Notes under the pieces: model-generated
What the model was told of the DNA's origin: nothing
Database searches by the model: none
What the model saw: the letters and a program-made list of their open reading frames with translations, nothing else
Assembly: GCA_007376385.1 (NCBI GenBank)
Contig: VMGC01000002.1
Coordinates: 64,001-128,000, forward strand
Length of the DNA: 64,000 nt
Direction: 5' to 3'
From: Parcubacteria group bacterium Gr01-1014_8
GTDB taxonomy: Bacteria; Patescibacteriota; Minisyncoccia; Phycocordibacterales; UBA2100
Position numbers and translations under genes: made by a program
In this document: piece by piece, positions 3,058 through 32,535 of the stretch
Layout of the letters: the number at the start of each line of letters is the position of its first letter
Position numbering within the stretch: the first letter of the stretch is position 1

Positions 3058-3735
3058 TTAATCGGTATTAAGCTTGTATGCAAGCCACTCATTTATGTGC
3101 TTTTTGAATTCGGAAGGTGTTGAGAAATATTCCGGCATCGCTTTAGCGTCAATCAGCTTATTTTCAGGACGTTCCACTCCCGAAAAATCGAGATAGCTTG
3201 AATAAGGATACCTTTCTAGAGATTTTAAATTCGCGAGAGCAGACAAAGTCTCCTTTTCAAACGTCTTCGTAAGTGCGACTGGATTCAGATGCACGTACGC
3301 TATGAGGTATTTGAGATACCGATCATCTTTTGCATGAACGGCTTTGAATTTTCCTTGAAGGAGTGCTCCGTTGCGTTCATGTCGTTTGTTGAAATACATC
3401 GTATAGCCTGTTATGACTTTCTGCATGAATTTACTTATCCCGCCCACGCCAATTTCTCGGAGTATCAGGTGAAAATGATTTGGCATGAGGCAATACGCCG
3501 CGACGTCCACAAGTGGAGAGCCACGCGGCAGTTCCAAAGCTTCACGCAGTGAGTATCTACTTAGCCGTTCATCGAGCCGTTCTTCCTGGTTGCAGGAATA
3601 AAGGAGGGTTAGGAACCGCTCATAGTCACCGCGTGAGCTAAAAATCGAGCGCTTCTCGGTTCCCCGATTGTAGACATGATATATCTCATCGCTTGCGAAC
3701 TCTATTTGCCGTGTCACCCGGTGATTATAAAACAA
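3058..3735 (-). CDS. REP-associated tyrosine transposase (RAYT) / IS200-IS605 TnpA-like HUH Y1 transposase
   Basis: 'CLMPNHFHLIL' HuH motif and a C-terminal 'YLIAYVHLNP' tyrosine region. Flanked immediately on both sides by inverted REP hairpins. Confidence 0.8.
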   Translation of the reverse strand: MFYNHRVTRQIEFASDEIYHVYNRGTEKRSIFSSRGDYERFLTLLYSCNQEERLDERLSRYSLREALELPRGSPLVDVAAYCLMPNHFHLILREIGVGGISKFMQKVITGYTMYFNKRHERNGALLQGKFKAVHAKDDRYLKYLIAYVHLNPVALTKTFEKETLSALANLKSLERYPYSSYLDFSGVERPENKLIDAKAMPEYFSTPSEFKKHINEWLAYKLNTD

Positions 3736-29269: not shown

Positions 29270-29347
29270 TGCGCCGGACTGGATTCGAACCAGCGAAGAC
29301 CGAAGCCAACGCGTCTGTGCACAAGTCGCCTTGACCATAACCAGGCG
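29270..29347 (-). pseudogene. Degenerate tRNA-like remnant: intact T-arm GCTGGTTCGAATCCAGT, acceptor 3' strand CCGGCGCA and a tRNA-Tyr-like D-loop (TGGTCAAGGCGA), but no foldable acceptor or anticodon stem
   Basis: Shares its 3' acceptor with tRNA-Tyr at 29981. No valid cloverleaf after trying all registers. Inverted orientation relative to tRNA-Tyr. Confidence 0.45.
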
Positions 29348-29364
29348 TTATTTATTCTTTATGT

Positions 29365-30012
29365 ATGGTACGCATCCTAGCAATACCGAGAACGAAATGG
29401 AACGGAATAATAGGTCAGTACAAATCAGGGCTTTCGATGCAACAAGTTGCCGACAAGAATGGCGTATCGATTGATGTTATTACTTACATACTTCGTAAGT
29501 CTAAAGTGCCGCGGCGTTCATTTATTGACGCAAATAGAATTGCGTTTGAATCAAAGAAACCCTCTTTTGCGCTACGCAATCAGAACTCGGATTCATCAAA
29601 GGAGTTAGATTTGATTGGAGCGATGCTCTATTGGGCAGAGGGATATAAGAGAAATACGGCTAGCGGAATAGATTTTGCGAATAGCGATCCTGATATGGCC
29701 TTATTATTCTGGCGATTCCTGAAACATCGTTACAAACTCGACCTCAAGAGGCTCTATTTCTCTGTTTATCACTATGACGATCAACACTTATCCGCTCTTG
29801 TGAAGTTTTGGAAGCATAAGTTGGGTATCTCTGAGGAACTATTTCGACACTCATATATGAAGGGAAATTCGAATCCGAATGCGCGCAAGTTGCCATACGG
29901 TGTTTTACACATTCGCTATATGGATAAAAAGCTTTTGAGAGACGTGCTAACTTTGATAGAATCGTATAAACTACGGTTCTGCGTCGGTGGCGGAGTGGTC
30001 AATCGCAATTGA
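29365..30012 (+). CDS. HTH-domain protein, paralog A of a two-member family; possibly LAGLIDADG-like. The stop codon lies 30 nt inside tRNA-Tyr.
   Basis: N-terminal HTH 'LSMQQVADKNGVSIDVITYILRK'. The conserved block 'LYWAEGYKR...IDFANSDPDMALLFWRFL' matches paralog B 'IYWCEGAKR...FSFTNSDPELISTFLSLL'. Confidence 0.5.
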   Translation: MVRILAIPRTKWNGIIGQYKSGLSMQQVADKNGVSIDVITYILRKSKVPRRSFIDANRIAFESKKPSFALRNQNSDSSKELDLIGAMLYWAEGYKRNTASGIDFANSDPDMALLFWRFLKHRYKLDLKRLYFSVYHYDDQHLSALVKFWKHKLGISEELFRHSYMKGNSNPNARKLPYGVLHIRYMDKKLLRDVLTLIESYKLRFCVGGGVVNRN

Positions 30013-30064
30013 CTGTAGATCAATCGCCCTTTGGGCTACGCAGGTTCGAATCCTGCCCGGCGCA
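29981..30064 (+). tRNA. tRNA-Tyr (anticodon GTA), class II
   Basis: Acceptor GCGTCGG/CCGGCGC (one G-U pair), anticodon arm ATTGA-cTGTAGa-TCAAT, long variable arm, T-arm GCAGGTTCGAATCCTGC. Confidence 0.8.
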
Positions 30065-30115
30065 CAAGTAAGATGGTCAAATTGGGGAGCTTTTTCGCGT
30101 GCTACAATATTCCAG

Positions 30116-30499
30116 ATGAGAGCAGTGCGTTTTGCGCTCGCGTACCTAACTCCCGTTTCTTTAGCGCTTCTGCCGCTCGTTTCAAACGCTGCTTTGCCGG
30201 ATTCCATCGTTCCGTGTAAGGGGCTCGACTGCACAGTGTGCAGCTTGGCGACACTTGCTCAAAACTTGCTGAATGCGGGGATTTTCATGGCTATCTTCAT
30301 ATCCGCGCTTCTCTTTGCCTATGCAGGGTGGCTGTATCTCACCAACGAAGCTATCGGTCAGCAGCAGAAGGCAAAAGGCATGTTTCTGAATGTGGTAGTT
30401 GGACTCGTTCTCATTCTCGGCGCATGGCTCATCGTTGATACTTTGATGAAGGTTATGCTCGGAGGCAGCTACATGCCGTGGAATAGCGTTTGTTCATAG
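30116..30499 (+). CDS. TrbC/VirB2-like pilin-type small membrane protein, paralog 6
   Basis: Signal peptide MRAVRFALAYLTPVSLALLPLVSNA; 'VVGLVLILGAWLIVDTLMKVMLGG' matches paralog 1. Confidence 0.55.
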   Translation: MRAVRFALAYLTPVSLALLPLVSNAALPDSIVPCKGLDCTVCSLATLAQNLLNAGIFMAIFISALLFAYAGWLYLTNEAIGQQQKAKGMFLNVVVGLVLILGAWLIVDTLMKVMLGGSYMPWNSVCS

Positions 30500-30615
30500 G
30501 CCCTGCACGTCTTCGTATTGACCCCATTAGAGAAGGATCATTTCCTTCCAGCTTGTTCTGCGTATTCGCTCTTCAAAAATTGATCGAAATAGGACCAAAG
30601 CATTCTCTAACGGGG

Positions 30616-30644
30616 TTGACCTAGAGCCGCTATTTGGCTATAGT
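30616..30644 (+). promoter_or_regulatory. Canonical sigma70-type promoter: TTGACC - 17 bp - TATAGT, 14 nt upstream of the rpmG ATG
   Basis: Hexamers and spacing seen directly. Confidence 0.5.
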
Positions 30645-30658
30645 GCGCCCGAATCGAT

Positions 30659-30817
30659 ATGTCACAAGATCAACTCATAAAACTCGCGTGTTCGAAGTGC
30701 GCACGCATCAACTACTGGTCCCGCAAGAACAGAAAGCTTGTTACGCGCAAGATAGAAATGAAGAAGTACTGCAAGTGGTGTAAGGCGCACACCATGCATA
30801 AGGAATCTAAAAAGTAA
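30659..30817 (+). CDS. rpmG: 50S ribosomal protein L33 (zinc-ribbon form), 52 aa
   Basis: MSQDQLIKLACSKCARINYWSRKNRKLVTRKIEMKKYCKWCKAHTMHKESKK: two CxxC pairs and the 'K.EmKKYC..C..H..HKE.K' L33 signature. Missing from the ORF track because it is under 60 aa. Confidence 0.85.
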   Translation: MSQDQLIKLACSKCARINYWSRKNRKLVTRKIEMKKYCKWCKAHTMHKESKK

Positions 30818-30829
30818 GCCTTGCCCACT

Positions 30830-31140
30830 TGCAGTGAGAAGGGGCCGGGAAGCGGGAGCGACCAATCATTCTTAGCGGTACTCCGCTTTAGAATGATGAA
30901 GTACTCCTGTGGTGTTTCCCGTGGAGGAAGGCAGCGTGTGAGTTTTGGACGAGCATTGGAAAACCGTGGGCGACCAATTTTTCTTGCCGGTACTCCGGCT
31001 TAGAAAAATGGAGGTACCCTTGAGGTGTGACCAAGAAAATAACGAGGAACGAGTATATTTTCTGAAGTACTCTTGCGGTGTTTCCAAAGTTTTCTTGTGT
31101 TGCCGCAAGCATACGCCGCACAAAGAAGCGAAGAAATAGA
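30830..31140 (+). repeat. Three tandem degenerate partial copies of the rpmG gene, each containing an 11-bp-stem hairpin
   Basis: For example 'agaatgatgaagtactcctgtggtgtttcc' versus rpmG 'agaaatgaagaagtactgcaagtggtgtaagg'. The last copy ends 'CRKHTPHKEAKK*' versus rpmG 'KAHTMHKESKK*'. Confidence 0.6.
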
Positions 31141-31161
31141 AGCGCTTGATATACTGCGTGC

Positions 31162-31764
31162 ATGGTAGAGGAGCTCGGACGAGTGCGCTTGTCATACAAC
31201 AATGAGTTGGACAAGCTTCGTGCCGAACCGGAGAAATTGAGCGATTTACGCAAATTCATCGGCCTTGCCGCTCGCACTGCATATGGTGAATTATTGTTGA
31301 TTCAGGTCCGTGCGGGTATCCCAATCGTGAATGCCGCCCCGGGTCTGCTCAAACTGTTGGACCAGTCTGCGGACAAGGCCGAAGAGTATGAGAAATTAAT
31401 AAGCGGAATCGCATCGAAAGACGAACTCGAGGATAGGGAACGCGGTTTCTGCGTCCTCTTTGTGATACGACCGTTCTTAAATTACATAGCGGAGGTGCAT
31501 GCACACACGCCAGAGAACAACCATAATGCGCGGGCGGCACTCTTATCAATGATGAATGATTTTGTAGAGATAGCCGGACACATGGCCGGAAAAATCAAAG
31601 ATGAAACTGAACGGGATAGAGCCCAAAAAACGGTCGCTGAGTTGAAAGGCATGATAAAGAACAATGTGGTAGGGGAAGCACAATACATTGAGAGAGTAGA
31701 GATTTGTCGTGGCGCTGTTGGGCGTTTTTTCAACATCCTAGACGAGAGATGCATCGTTTGCTGA
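31162..31764 (+). CDS. Hypothetical protein
   Basis: 200-aa ORF; no motif. Confidence 0.35.
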   Translation: MVEELGRVRLSYNNELDKLRAEPEKLSDLRKFIGLAARTAYGELLLIQVRAGIPIVNAAPGLLKLLDQSADKAEEYEKLISGIASKDELEDRERGFCVLFVIRPFLNYIAEVHAHTPENNHNARAALLSMMNDFVEIAGHMAGKIKDETERDRAQKTVAELKGMIKNNVVGEAQYIERVEICRGAVGRFFNILDERCIVC

Positions 31765-31808
31765 TATTATATAACAGAAGTCTTACAACCATCAATTATA
31801 GTCTGATT

Positions 31809-32474
31809 ATGAAGTTAGTTGAGCATGAGCGCGCAATTTCGTTGCGCAAGCAAGGGCGTTCAATGAAGGAAATAGCAAACACTTTGTTTGTTGCAAAGAG
31901 TACAGTTTCGCTTTGGGTTCGAGATATTTCGTTGAGTAGACCTGCACGAAAACGCATACGTTTACTCTATACAAATGGACAGATCGCATCGCAAAAAGCC
32001 AATCGCGCAAAGACCGCACTTAAAGAGCGGCACGCACAAGAGGAAGCGAAACGCATCCTTTCAAAGATTCCGGATAATCGAGAGCTAAAGCAACTTTTAT
32101 GTTGTTTAATATATTGGTGTGAAGGTGCAAAGCGCTATGGGAACATGGGTAATTTTTCTTTCACAAATTCTGATCCCGAGTTAATCTCGACGTTTCTTTC
32201 ATTGCTGAGGGAATCGTTTGAATTGGATGAGGCAAAATTCAGGGTGTGTATGCATTTACACAGTTATCATGATGAGAAGAAGCAGTTGAAATTCTGGTCA
32301 AAAATGACTAGTATTCCAACTGAGCTGTTCATTCGTTCATATCGCAAGAGGGAGAGCGGTATAAGTATCCGAAGTGGGTATCAAGGTTGTATTTCCATCC
32401 GATATCACGATACTGCCTTTCTCCGTCAAATCTTGGCGATAGCGAGTGAATTTCTCAAGAAAAGGGGTCCATAG
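31809..32474 (+). CDS. HTH-domain protein, paralog B (start taken at MKLVEH; alternative starts at 31749 or 31704). Its TAG stop lies inside tRNA-Trp.
   Basis: HTH 'RSMKEIANTLFVAKSTVSLWVRD'. Shares the 'IYWCEG...FTNSDPEL' block with paralog A. Confidence 0.5.
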   Translation: MKLVEHERAISLRKQGRSMKEIANTLFVAKSTVSLWVRDISLSRPARKRIRLLYTNGQIASQKANRAKTALKERHAQEEAKRILSKIPDNRELKQLLCCLIYWCEGAKRYGNMGNFSFTNSDPELISTFLSLLRESFELDEAKFRVCMHLHSYHDEKKQLKFWSKMTSIPTELFIRSYRKRESGISIRSGYQGCISIRYHDTAFLRQILAIASEFLKKRGP

Positions 32475-32535
32475 TTCAGTGGTAGAATATCTCTCTCCAA
32501 AAGAGCAGATCTAGGTTCGATTCCTAGTGGGCCCG
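32465..32535 (+). tRNA. tRNA-Trp (anticodon CCA)
   Basis: Acceptor GGGTCCA/TGGGCCC (one G-U pair), D-arm GTTCAGTGGTAGAAT, anticodon loop cTCCAaa, T-arm CTAGGTTCGATTCCTAG. Confidence 0.75.

What the first reader, a model, noticed from the sequence alone, without database searches (positions are those of the whole stretch)
30616..31140. rpmG (L33), driven by a textbook sigma70 promoter, is followed by three degenerate tandem partial copies of itself
The 52-aa zinc-ribbon L33 gene (missed by the 60-aa ORF cutoff) has a clean TTGACC-17-TATAGT promoter. Downstream, 30830-31140 contains three successive segments homologous to the rpmG 3' half (gaagtact..gtggtgt.. / ..c[ag]cacaaagaagc.aagaaatag), each with an ~11-bp-stem hairpin centred on 'tact'. 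The last copy still reads '..KYSCGVSKVFLCCRKHTPHKEAKK*' against rpmG '..KKYCKWCKAHTMHKESKK*'. Tandem segmental duplication and decay of a ribosomal protein gene is unusual in a streamlined genome. The hairpins could instead be a reused terminator or attenuator module. The 60-64-aa ORFs called here are probably pseudo-ORFs.
Basis: seen in the sequence. Interest (0 to 1): 0.5.

Follow-up and report, generated by a model that had tools for sequence, protein, structure and literature searches.

The report
Tiny insertion element replacing rpmG's tail
The "decayed copies" after the L33 gene are a roughly 320-base, gene-less insertion element, apparently undescribed, that sits inside the 3' end of rpmG, supplies a working replacement tail, and leaves the original tail stranded downstream; related copies sit mostly in tRNA genes of Patescibacteria.

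Summary
rpmG (30659-30817) is a genuine 52-aa L33 with a promoter-like site that is conserved among relatives. The region behind it is not a tandem duplication. It is one copy of a widespread small element.

- **Architecture.** In more than 100 loci the order is the same: intact host 3' end (A), spacer, an "arm" antisense to A, a conserved ~62-nt core "X" with two hairpins, then a second copy of the host tail (B).
- **Hosts.** Of 103 copies, 52 follow tRNA genes (28 anticodon types) and 18 follow rpmG.
- **Insertion.** Empty relatives align to B and its flank, leaving a single ~166-nt gap.
- **Mobility.** Between two genomes, the block from A-tail through X is about 99% identical while the surrounding rpmG differs by 17-23%.
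- **Coding signature.** A and B differ almost only at synonymous sites (86 synonymous versus 11 non-synonymous codons).
The two "tact" hairpins belong to "Y" modules nested in X's loops. Y also occurs in tRNA-hosted copies and alone.
- **Prior description.** X has no Rfam match and I found no description in the literature searched.
- **Mechanism.** How it moves is only inferred; I favour a folded single-strand integration substrate, with a ribozyme as the main alternative.

The parts
30616..30644 (+). Promoter-like site TTGACC-17-TATAGT for rpmG. The -10 box ends 14 nt before the ATG, which implies a very short 5' UTR.
   Evidence: Consensus scan, 10/12 match. A TATAGT-like box sits at the same distance in most of 18 related loci. 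Function is inferred.
30659..30817 (+). rpmG, ribosomal protein L33, 52 aa, four-cysteine zinc ribbon.
   Evidence: Pfam PF00471 E=5.9e-18. 80 orthologues at 73-92% identity in Patescibacteria MAGs.
30768..30780 (+). Insertion or target site within rpmG (ACTGC AAG TGGTG, codons C-K-W-C). It is complementary to the arm.
   Evidence: 11-bp perfect inverted repeat with 30825-30835 (I4). The block boundary maps here in L011 versus L169 and in the empty-site alignment.
30776..30817 (+). A-tail: the last 13 codons of rpmG plus the stop codon, now in use. By homology with relatives this is the replacement tail carried by the element.
   Evidence: In L011 versus L169 the A-tail is 0/42 different while the rpmG 5' part is 27/117 different. 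For the window itself this is an inference.
30818..30824 (+). Spacer GCCTTGC, identical to that of locus L039.
   Evidence: Alignment A3.
30825..30835 (+). Arm CCACTTGCAGT, antisense to the rpmG target site.
   Evidence: An arm is present in all copies and matches its own host.
30836..30859 (+). Purine linker, then the 5' part of the X core (GGGGCCGGGAAGC GGGA GC): the conserved GGGGTC box (here T to C) and the P2 5' strand with its loop.
   Evidence: Alignment to L039. Consensus from 58 copies.
30860..30914 (+). Y1 module inserted in the P2 loop: GACCAAT, a 13-bp hairpin with loop UACU, then GAAGTACTCCTGTGGTG.
   Evidence: Absent from L039. Fold z=-3.95. Same module in other loci.
30915..30931 (+). 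P2 3' strand TTTCCC and the invariant joining strand GTGGAGGAAGG.
   Evidence: Invariant in 58/58 copies. P2 covariation: 5 of 8 pairs compensatory.
30932..30956 (+). Optional hairpin P2a between the joining strand and P3. It is subfamily-specific and shared with L039.
   Evidence: Many metagenomic copies carry a hairpin at this site.
30957..30971 (+). P3 5' strand and loop (TGGAAAACCGTGGGC).
   Evidence: The closing pair is U-A here, G-C or C-G in other subfamilies.
30972..31027 (+). Y2 module in the P3 loop (hairpin with loop UACU, end GGAGGTACCCTTGAGGTG).
   Evidence: Aligns with the Y modules of L023 and of tRNA-Lys-hosted L089. Fold z=-3.29.
31028..31080 (+). Y3: a degenerate third Y-like module nested after Y2 (TGACCAAG ... 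GAAGTACTCTTGCGGTG).
   Evidence: Motif match. No stable hairpin, z=+0.22.
31081..31089 (+). P3 3' strand and the end of the X core (TTTCCAAAG).
   Evidence: Alignment A3.
31090..31097 (+). B-head: an altered copy of the target's left half. TTC TTG here, against TGC AAG in rpmG.
   Evidence: The type of altered centre goes with the X subfamily in relatives.
31098..31139 (+). B-tail: the displaced original 3' end of rpmG (CCRKHTPHKEAKK*), now a decaying relic. The Trp codon has changed from TGG to TGT.
   Evidence: Weak Pfam L33 hit at its end. In relatives, B plus its flank is collinear with empty sites. A and B differ by 86 synonymous and 11 non-synonymous codons.

Best explanation
Window 30776-31097 is one integrated copy, about 322 nt, of a gene-less, non-autonomous insertion element family of Patescibacteria. 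The element sits inside the 3' part of a host gene, here rpmG at codons Cys-Lys-Trp-Cys. Elsewhere the host site is mostly the T-loop or acceptor region of tRNA genes.

**What the element contains, in order**
1. A functional replacement copy of the host gene's tail (A-tail), often followed by its own terminator-like hairpin.
2. An inverted copy of the target (the arm), which forms a long hairpin with the tail.
3. A highly conserved ~62-nt core, X: a GGGGTC box, hairpin P2, the strand GTGGAGGAAGG, and hairpin P3.
4. A short copy of the target's left half with an altered centre (B-head).

The host's original tail (B-tail) is pushed downstream and decays. In the window the core has also been invaded by three small Y hairpin modules.

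**Shown**
- The insertion.
- The replacement of the tail.
- The structured core.
- The multiplicity of hosts.
- Transfer of the block between genomes.

**Inferred mechanism**
The element moves as a folded single strand, DNA or RNA. Its stem (arm paired with B-head plus A-tail, carrying a pyrimidine-pyrimidine mismatch four to five base pairs from the core) mimics the target duplex. A trans-acting recombinase, or possibly the core itself, exchanges one strand with the target. This resembles CTX-phi or integron attC integration. The near-perfect palindrome formed by the A-tail and the arm suggests that one was copied from the other.
For: - **Same architecture everywhere.** 18 rpmG loci and more than 100 metagenomic loci share it. 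52 of 103 copies lie within about 110 nt downstream of a same-strand tRNA, covering 28 anticodon types. A always lies 4-95 nt before the arm, so there is no room for cargo genes.
- **Insertion.** Empty loci L020 and L035 align to the B copy and post-B flank of L011, leaving one gap of about 166 nt.
- **Mobility.** L011 versus L169: rpmG 5' part 27/117 different, B-tail 7/42 different, downstream flank unrelated. In contrast the A-tail is 0/42 different, the spacer about 47/53 identical and X 61/62 identical.
- **Both tails come from functional genes.** Of 108 A/B differences, 92 are at codon position 3. That gives 86 synonymous and 11 non-synonymous codons, against a null expectation of 15 and 74; 0 of 2000 simulations reach this.
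- **Structured core.** 98.9% of cells are paired, 6 pairs show compensatory change, and 0 of 500 shuffles match. A mirror-repeat covariation links the linker and P2 (55/58 and 57/58 identical, 0 of 2000 shuffles). Six copies are circularly permuted.
- **Hairpin.** A paired with the arm forms a long hairpin in 64 copies: median about 19.5 bp, up to 36 bp.
- **Window copy.** It aligns to L039 with Y1 in the P2 loop and Y2+Y3 in the P3 loop. Y modules occur in tRNA-hosted copies and alone.
Against: - **No enzyme identified.** No recombinase, reverse transcriptase or other partner was found. No free or circular form has been seen.
- **Host-specific arms unexplained.** Arms match each host's own sequence (12-16 of 16 nt). 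A simple carried-guide model does not explain this, and template-copying at insertion may be needed.
- **One clear transfer case.** The block-transfer evidence rests mainly on the L011/L169 pair. In general, A and B within a genome resemble each other more (about 0.18 differences per site) than A tails do between genomes (about 0.26). This points to local duplication, or to donors that are close relatives.
- **RNA or DNA undecided.** The pairs give no strand asymmetry: 6 G:T against 4 A:C.
- **Window copy is atypical.** It has a substitution in the otherwise invariant GGGGTC box and scores only 6.8 bits with the covariance model because of its insertions. Its assignment rests on alignment to L039.
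Confidence: 0.75

Rival explanations
1. Intron-like ribozyme element. X would be a new small cleaving and ligating ribozyme with a hairpin-ribozyme-like topology: a guide strand with a 4-bp helix next to the catalytic domain, then an internal loop, then a longer helix. It would excise the segment from A-tail to B-head at the RNA level. That would join the rpmG or tRNA body to the B-tail and release a circular RNA able to re-insert into matching transcripts. Both tails would then be used.
For: - The arm/B pairing commonly shows 4 bp, then 1-3 mismatches, then further pairs next to the core.
- Circularly permuted copies exist, as in hammerhead and twister ribozymes.
- About 40 core nucleotides are invariant, with purine-rich junction strands.
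- The element always lies on the same strand as its host.
- The B-tail keeps coding capacity with strongly synonymous divergence.
- B-tails at tRNA hosts are mostly identical to A-tails as far as the discriminator base.
Against: - Many spacers carry terminator-like hairpins with T-runs between A and the arm, which would stop co-transcription.
- Several B copies have an in-frame stop in the head (L001, L045) or have lost the stop codon (L007). The window's B has lost the Trp codon.
- The synonymous bias is also explained if the two tails are orthologous, one from a donor and one resident.
- X matches no known ribozyme family.
- In permuted copies the target-like helix attaches to a different arm of the core.
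- Fixing such an insertion in DNA would need a reverse transcriptase, and none was identified.
Confidence: 0.15
2. One reading: local tandem segmental duplication of the rpmG 3' half, followed by decay of the copies.
For: The rpmG 3' end has a significant local match downstream, and an L33-like tail ends at 31139.
Against: - There is no tandem array.
- The intervening sequence is a conserved element also found at tRNA genes.
- The GAAGTACT..GGTG segments occur in tRNA-hosted and stand-alone Y modules.
- Empty and filled sites differ by a single insertion.
- The copy in use travels with the element between genomes.
Confidence: 0.03
3. A host cis-acting RNA: a structured 3' UTR, terminator or attenuator, or an autoregulatory L33-binding site that evolved in place behind rpmG.
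For: In the window the spacer is only 7 nt, so X should be co-transcribed with rpmG. The A/arm hairpin encloses the stop codon. The core contains GGAGG-like boxes.
Against: - The same core follows 28 kinds of tRNA and other genes.
- Its distribution among close relatives is patchy: about 12 of 80 rpmG loci carry it.
- No + strand terminator is predicted.
- The element differs in phylogeny from the gene it follows.
Confidence: 0.04
4. Leftover att sites of a conventional integrase-borne island or prophage that integrated into the rpmG or tRNA 3' end and later lost its cargo.
For: Direct repeats of the gene tail, with restoration of the 3' end, are the hallmark of such integrations. The T-loop is a classic integrase target (from my own knowledge of tRNA-targeting integrases).
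Against: - All 100 or so copies are tiny and carry the same conserved core and an arm. None has cargo.
- The X pattern has no hit in 2.9 million viral contigs.
- Independent deletions would not leave identical 62-nt cores.
Confidence: 0.03

Closest known systems
Integrative elements that target the 3' end of tRNA, tmRNA or protein genes and carry a replacement 3' end in attP (P4-like, HP1-like and SSV-like elements, genomic islands)
   Same: Insertion lies inside the gene's 3' part. The gene stays intact because the element supplies the tail. The displaced partial tail remains as a direct repeat. The T-loop and acceptor sub-sites of tRNA genes are preferred.
   Different: Those elements are kilobases long and encode their own integrase. 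This one is 130-320 nt and has no gene. It has a conserved structured core plus an inverted copy of the target. No integrase was found in cis.
Single-stranded folded recombination substrates: CTX-phi attP(+) with XerCD, and integron attC sites
   Same: The order of parts after integration matches what a one-strand exchange with a folded hairpin would leave: hybrid site, rest of the element, inverted half-site, loop, half-site, chromosome. The stem has a central mismatch.
   Different: The resemblance is in architecture only. No Xer or IntI binding motifs were tested, and single-strandedness is not shown. The loop here is a conserved 62-nt domain rather than arbitrary sequence.
Small palindromic insertion elements of reduced genomes and organelles (Rickettsia palindromic elements, Neisseria Correia elements, fungal mitochondrial double-hairpin elements, MITEs)
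   Same: They are short, gene-less, hairpin-forming and multi-copy. They insert into or next to genes without killing them, and they nest within one another.
   Different: The X element has no terminal inverted repeats and no short fixed target-site duplication. It duplicates the host tail (15-45 nt or more) and adds an inverted target copy. Its core is conserved across genomes at ribozyme-like levels.
Homing-endonuclease gene insertions that duplicate the displaced C-terminal codons of the host gene (for example in mitochondrial rps3)
   Same: Insertion lies near the 3' end of a ribosomal protein gene, and a carried copy of the displaced codons keeps the ORF intact.
   Different: There is no endonuclease ORF inside the element. 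Paralogous HTH ORFs lie nearby in the window, but they are not consistently linked to X.
Small self-cleaving ribozymes (hairpin, hammerhead, twister) and ribozyme-bearing circular RNAs or retrozymes
   Same: A compact multi-helix junction, invariant junction nucleotides, variable peripheral loops, natural circular permutation, and a guide-like strand next to the core.
   Different: X does not match any Rfam ribozyme model. Catalysis is untested. Terminator-like hairpins lie upstream of many cores.

Membership tests
Ribosomal protein L33 (rpmG) | Match to the Pfam Ribosomal_L33 profile above its gathering score | tested here: met
   65.4 bits against a cutoff of 25, E=5.9e-18.
Ribosomal protein L33 (rpmG) | About 50-aa protein with two CxxC knuckles (C+ form) | tested here: met
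   MSQDQLIKLACSKCARINYWSRKNRKLVTRKIEMKKYCKWCKAHTMHKESKK.
Second L33 paralog (C+/C- pair) at the locus | A second complete L33 ORF | tested here: not met
   Only the last 13-16 codons recur. The 64-aa ORF matches L33 only at residues 53-63, E=0.084. The upstream frame is not conserved.
Tandem segmental duplication | Head-to-tail repeat units detectable as an array | tested here: not met
   TRF finds no array in 30600-31200 at minimum score 30.
Intrinsic terminator or attenuator | G+C-rich hairpin followed by a T-run on the + strand after rpmG | tested here: not met
   No + strand site in 30400-31400.
Any Rfam 15 RNA family (including hairpin, hammerhead, twister, pistol, hatchet, HDV-like, group I/II introns) | Covariance-model match at E<=1-10 | tested here: not met
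   Window 30500-31400 gives only a chance miRNA hit. 21 compact related loci give only tRNAs and chance hits.
Integrase-mediated integrative element | Direct repeats of the target gene's 3' end flanking the insert, with the gene restored | tested here: met
   A and B repeats at all hosts. Empty-site alignment.
Integrase-mediated integrative element | Integrase gene within the element | tested here: not met
   A lies 4-95 nt before the arm in essentially all copies, so there is no coding space.
MITE | Terminal inverted repeats and a short target-site duplication of fixed length | tested here: not met
   The ends are a host tail copy and a B-head. The direct repeat is 10-46 nt and ends at the gene's functional end.
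Diversity-generating retroelement (TR/VR pair at a gene's 3' end) | Adenine-specific differences between the repeats, and a nearby reverse transcriptase | tested here: not met
   Differences are third-position changes of all kinds. No room for an RT within or next to the element. RT genes elsewhere in the genome were not surveyed.
CTX-phi / attC-type folded single-strand integration substrate | Imperfect hairpin whose stem mimics the double-stranded target, with an unpaired centre; one-strand exchange | tested here: inconclusive
   The hairpin with a central mismatch, and the order of parts, fit. Single-strandedness, recombinase binding sites and the chemistry cannot be tested here.
Small self-cleaving ribozyme | Site-specific self-cleavage | not testable with these tools
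   Only indirect features are available: conservation, covariation and permutation.

The most novel reading that the evidence does not exclude
X is a new class of small catalytic RNA with a hairpin-ribozyme-like layout. It would make the element a protein-free mobile intron. It would cut itself out of tRNA and rpmG transcripts as a circle, join the gene body to the resident tail, and re-insert into transcripts matched by its arm. The carried replacement tail would be an insurance that makes splicing optional.
Probability: 0.15. Interest if true: 0.95.

Novelty: new variant of a known kind. Interest (0 to 1): 0.7.

Why it matters
Patescibacteria (CPR) have tiny genomes, yet these elements sit in essential single-copy genes, namely tRNAs and a ribosomal protein, without harming them.

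- **A new way to be mobile.** A 130-320-nt element with no gene carries a near-invariant structured core, a target-matched hairpin and a spare gene tail. This is an economical route to site-specific mobility that has not been catalogued: it has no Rfam family and I found no matching paper.
- **A handle on mechanism.** It gives a concrete, testable system for asking how such elements move in organisms with minimal enzyme repertoires. The candidates are a host recombinase acting on a folded strand, template-copying, or a new ribozyme.
- **Annotation.** The displaced tails create pseudo-ORFs and tRNA-like fragments. The element also explains patchy 100-300-nt insertions behind tRNA genes in CPR MAGs.

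Tried and rejected
- **Rfam.** Gathering and E-value searches on the window and on 21 compact related loci found nothing on X, Y or the related Z cores.
- **Covariance model R1.** Run over the whole window with filters off, it found no second copy. It barely sees the window's own copy, which has three large insertions.
- **Viral contigs.** The X pattern gave 0 hits.
- **Exact-protein look-ups.** L33 and the 64-aa ORF are not on record.
- **Group I intron.** Rejected: no Rfam hit, the 62-nt core is far too small, and there is no conserved G-U at the putative splice site.
- **DGR.** Rejected: the differences are not adenine-specific and there is no room for a reverse transcriptase within or next to the element (RT genes elsewhere in the genome were not surveyed).
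- **Small ORF.** X contains GGAGG followed by an NTG that is in frame with the B-tail in some rpmG copies. The frame differs between subfamilies and is closed in L001 and L045, so this was rejected.
- **Gene conversion.** Rejected as the cause of A/B similarity, because synonymous sites are strongly diverged.
- **RNA versus DNA.** G:T against A:C asymmetry is uninformative at 6 versus 4.
- **P1 register.** A fixed-register tabulation is noisy because linker lengths vary.
- **Literature.** Six full-text searches, including sequence strings of the core, found no description. The Patescibacteria tRNA group I intron paper (PMC13011429) concerns anticodon-loop introns, not this element.
- **Neighbouring ORFs.** NCBIfam and Pfam searches gave only weak HTH hits.
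Full report
**1. The observation**

The 52-aa ORF at 30659-30817 is a bona fide L33: Pfam PF00471, 65 bits, E=5.9e-18. It has 80 orthologues at 73-92% identity in Patescibacteria (Paceibacteria and Kaiserbacteria-type) MAGs. A neighbouring protein is 100% identical to one from "Parcubacteria group bacterium Gr01-1014_8".

The promoter-like site TTGACC-17-TATAGT is at 30616-30644. On its own it is about what chance gives per kilobase. However, a TATAGT-like -10 box lies 8-14 nt before the ATG in most of 18 relatives. The promoter call is therefore reasonable, and it implies a very short leader.

Downstream, repeats are real but short:
- Two ~52-nt units at 30850-30901 and 30962-31013, 77% identical.
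- Three 23-nt GAAGTACTC.TG.GGTG segments.
- A perfect 11-bp inverted repeat between rpmG 30768-30778 and 30825-30835.

TRF finds no tandem array. The best local match of the rpmG 3' end downstream is the segment at 30892-30915, reached by 1 of 1000 shuffles. The terminal L33-like tail at 31098-31139 is only 24/42 identical to the rpmG tail. Two of the three "tact" hairpins are strong (z=-3.95 and -3.29) and the third is not.

**2. What relatives show**

About a dozen of the 80 related rpmG loci have a conserved ~62-nt sequence, "X", behind rpmG. It is followed by a second copy, "B", of the last 13-16 codons of rpmG. In the other loci tRNA-Trp follows rpmG directly.

There X lies mostly just after tRNA genes. 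52 of 103 analysed copies have a same-strand tRNA upstream, covering 28 anticodon types, and 18 follow rpmG.

The architecture is constant:
1. The intact host 3' end (A).
2. A spacer of 4-95 nt, with no room for genes.
3. An "arm" that is the reverse complement of A's last 12-27 nt and matches each host's own sequence.
4. A purine linker, then X.
5. Two nucleotides, then a direct copy of the host tail (B) in which 1-3 central nucleotides of the arm-pairing part are changed.

From A to the arm the sequence folds into a long hairpin. Across 64 copies the median is about 19.5 bp spanning the two halves, with up to 36 bp. The apex is often terminator-like. At tRNA hosts the direct repeat is 15-18 nt and stops at the discriminator base. 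At rpmG it stops at the stop codon.

**3. It is an insertion, and it moves**

Empty loci L020 and L035 align with L011's B copy and with the flank behind B. A single gap of about 166 nt is left, equal to A-tail + spacer + arm + X + B-head. B and its flank are therefore the original chromosome, and the tail now in use lies inside the insert.

The comparison of L011 and L169 supports this:

| Segment | Difference or identity |
|---|---|
| rpmG 5' part | 27/117 different |
| B-tail | 7/42 different |
| Downstream flank | unrelated |
| A-tail | 0/42 different |
| Spacer | about 47/53 identical |
| X | 61/62 identical |

The block from A-tail through X therefore has a different history from the gene around it.

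Across 15 loci, A and B differ at 108 positions, 92 of them third codon positions. That gives 86 synonymous and 11 non-synonymous codons, against a null expectation of 15 and 74, with 0 of 2000 simulations reaching this. This fits two tails that each evolved as part of a working L33 gene, one in the donor and one in the resident.

One caveat remains. Within a genome, A and B are on average closer to each other than A tails are between genomes. Donors are therefore usually close relatives, or the tail is sometimes copied locally. I could not separate these two possibilities.

**4. The core**

X is close to invariant. The consensus is GGGGTC / GGGAAAAC-loop-GTTTTCCC / GTGGAGGAAGG-(A/T)T / TGGGAAAACCGTGGGTTTCCC / AG, and 33 columns are identical in 58 distinct copies.

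- **P2** is supported by covariation: 5 of its 8 pairs show changes on both sides. For P2 and P3 together 98.9% of cells are paired, and 0 of 500 shuffles match.
- **P3** varies little, but its closing pair is G-C, U-A or C-G in different subfamilies.
- **Mirror covariation.** Two linker positions covary as identical bases with the P2 5' strand (55/58 and 57/58, 0 of 2000 shuffles). This gives mirror repeats such as GAGAGGG-GTC-GGGAGAG. A purine triple helix could explain it, but that is an inference.
- **Variable sites.** Insertions occur at three places: the P2 loop, between GGAAGG and P3, and the P3 loop.
- **Permutation.** Six copies are circularly permuted, with P1 closed and P2 open.
- **Databases.** No Rfam 15 family matches X in the window or in compact copies.
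- **Related family.** A family "Z" shares GGGGTCG.GGAAA...TCCGTGACCG and the same A-arm-core-B layout behind tRNA-Trp. One copy has a perfect 60-nt direct repeat that includes the trailer.

**5. The window copy**

Aligned with L039, the window element has the same spacer (GCCTTGC), the same P2 loop and the same extra hairpin. It differs in three ways (coordinates):
- A 55-nt Y module lies in the P2 loop (30860-30914).
- Two nested Y modules lie in the P3 loop (30972-31027 and 31028-31080).
- The GGGGTC box carries a T-to-C change.

Y has the form CGACCAAT, hairpin, GAAGTACTCYTGNGGTG. It recurs in the P3 loop of tRNA-hosted X copies (L089, L094, L116, L148, L161). It also stands alone, with its own flanking inverted repeat, in L029, L053, L153 and L198.

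Their resemblance to the rpmG target (GAAGTACTGCAAGTGGTG) is real, but it is not a local duplication. Why Y ends look like a centre-altered rpmG site remains unexplained.

The window's B-tail encodes CRKHTPHKEAKK*. It resembles the tails of other lineages and has lost the Trp codon, so this is probably an old insertion.

**6. Mechanism**

Shown:
- The insertion.
- Tail replacement.
- The structured core.
- Many host genes.
- Block transfer between genomes.

Inferred: the free form would be a rod or dumbbell. Its stem would be the arm paired with B-head plus A-tail, carrying a pyrimidine-pyrimidine mismatch four to five pairs from the core. It would be capped by X at one end and by the spacer hairpin at the other. 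A one-strand exchange between this stem and the target would give exactly the observed order of parts, as in CTX-phi or attC recombination.

Because arms match each host, and because A-tail and arm form near-perfect palindromes, one was probably copied from the other at insertion. This could be target-primed or fold-back synthesis.

A ribozyme-based, intron-like alternative has a hairpin-ribozyme-like guide layout and is consistent with the permuted copies. It is not excluded, but the terminator-like spacers and the stop codons in several B heads weaken it. G:T versus A:C counts do not tell RNA from DNA.

**7. Known or new**

The logic of restoring the 3' end of a targeted tRNA or protein gene is classic for integrase-borne elements, and small palindromic insertion elements are also known. 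I did not find a gene-less, 130-320-nt element combining a near-invariant core, an inverted target copy and a spare gene tail. It was absent from Rfam and from six literature searches. I file it as a new variant of a known kind. There is a modest chance that the core is a new ribozyme, which would make the element categorically new.

Noticed in passing
window 29365-30012 and 31704-32474 (+): Two paralogous ORFs (25% identity, E=4e-18) have an N-terminal HTH and a C-terminal domain with an (L/I)YW(A/C)EG.K...NSDP motif. Each ends inside the 5' end of a tRNA gene (tRNA-Tyr 29981-30065, tRNA-Trp 32465-32535). The family is widespread in Patescibacteria and is annotated only as hypothetical, HTH or transposase-like. 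It also lies between rpmG and tRNA-Trp in L005, L007, L016, L037, L050, L056 and L174. It may be a homing-endonuclease-like or recombinase-like partner; this was not tested.
   Followed up: partly
window 29271-29345 (+): GTGCGCCGGACTGGATTCGAACCAGCG is the reverse complement of a tRNA T-arm plus acceptor 3' strand and closely resembles the 3' end of tRNA-Tyr. It looks like a 5'-truncated antisense tRNA fragment, or an "arm", just upstream of the HTH ORF. ARAGORN and Rfam do not call it.
   Followed up: no
L029 (-, ~1349), L053 (+, ~334), L153 (-, ~7214), L198 (+, ~589), L041 (+, ~2375): Y modules (~75 nt: CGACCA.., hairpin, ..GAAGTACTCTTGTGGTG) occur outside X. There they sit in the loop of a perfect flanking inverted repeat, or directly after a tRNA 3' end. 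Y therefore looks like a separate small insertion element that targets hairpin loops. Its 3' end resembles a centre-altered rpmG target site.
   Followed up: partly
L006, L021, L027, L034, L044, L057, L063, L072, L077 (downstream of tRNA-Trp, ~3255-3600): A related "Z" core family has the same tail / arm / core / tail layout and shares GGGGTCG.GGAAA..TCCGTGACCG with X. L044 has a perfect 60-nt direct repeat that extends 45 nt into the tRNA trailer, so the duplicated segment can go beyond the gene. No Rfam match.
   Followed up: partly
X core, alignment A2 columns 3-19 (window 30836-30853): There is a mirror-repeat covariation between the purine linker and the P2 5' strand, for example GAAAGGG-GTC-GGGAAAA versus GAGAGGG-GTC-GGGAGAG. 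It is compatible with an intramolecular purine triple helix.
   Followed up: partly
X core in rpmG-hosted copies (e.g. L011:3240-3320): GGAGGAAGGA is followed by ATG or TTG, which in some subfamilies is in frame with the B-tail and would give MGKPWVSQSCLWCKAHTKHKEAKK*. The frame is not conserved across subfamilies and is closed by TAG in L001 and L045.
   Followed up: yes
spacers and trailers after tRNA genes in many loci (e.g. L095, L140, L116, L167, L006): A recurrent motif GAACGAAGTGA(A/G) or GCGAAGCGA lies directly after tRNA 3' ends, both in element spacers and in native trailers. It could be a processing signal or part of yet another element.
   Followed up: no
L055:3330-3385, also L017, L019, L051, L057 after rpmG: Runs of the heptamer (T)AGCTT(C/G)(T) occur between rpmG (or B) and tRNA-Trp in several relatives, as in TAGCTTCTAGCTTCTAGCTTGTAGCTTG.
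   Followed up: no
window 30104-30499 (+): A small membrane protein with a weak type IV secretion pilin match (PF18895, E=1.9e-4) sits between tRNA-Tyr and rpmG.
   Followed up: no
window 31162-31764 (+): A 200-aa ORF with no Pfam or NCBIfam match lies directly after the displaced rpmG tail. Together with the HTH ORF it forms a ~1.3-kb block between rpmG and tRNA-Trp. In most relatives those two genes are only 50-250 nt apart.
   Followed up: partly
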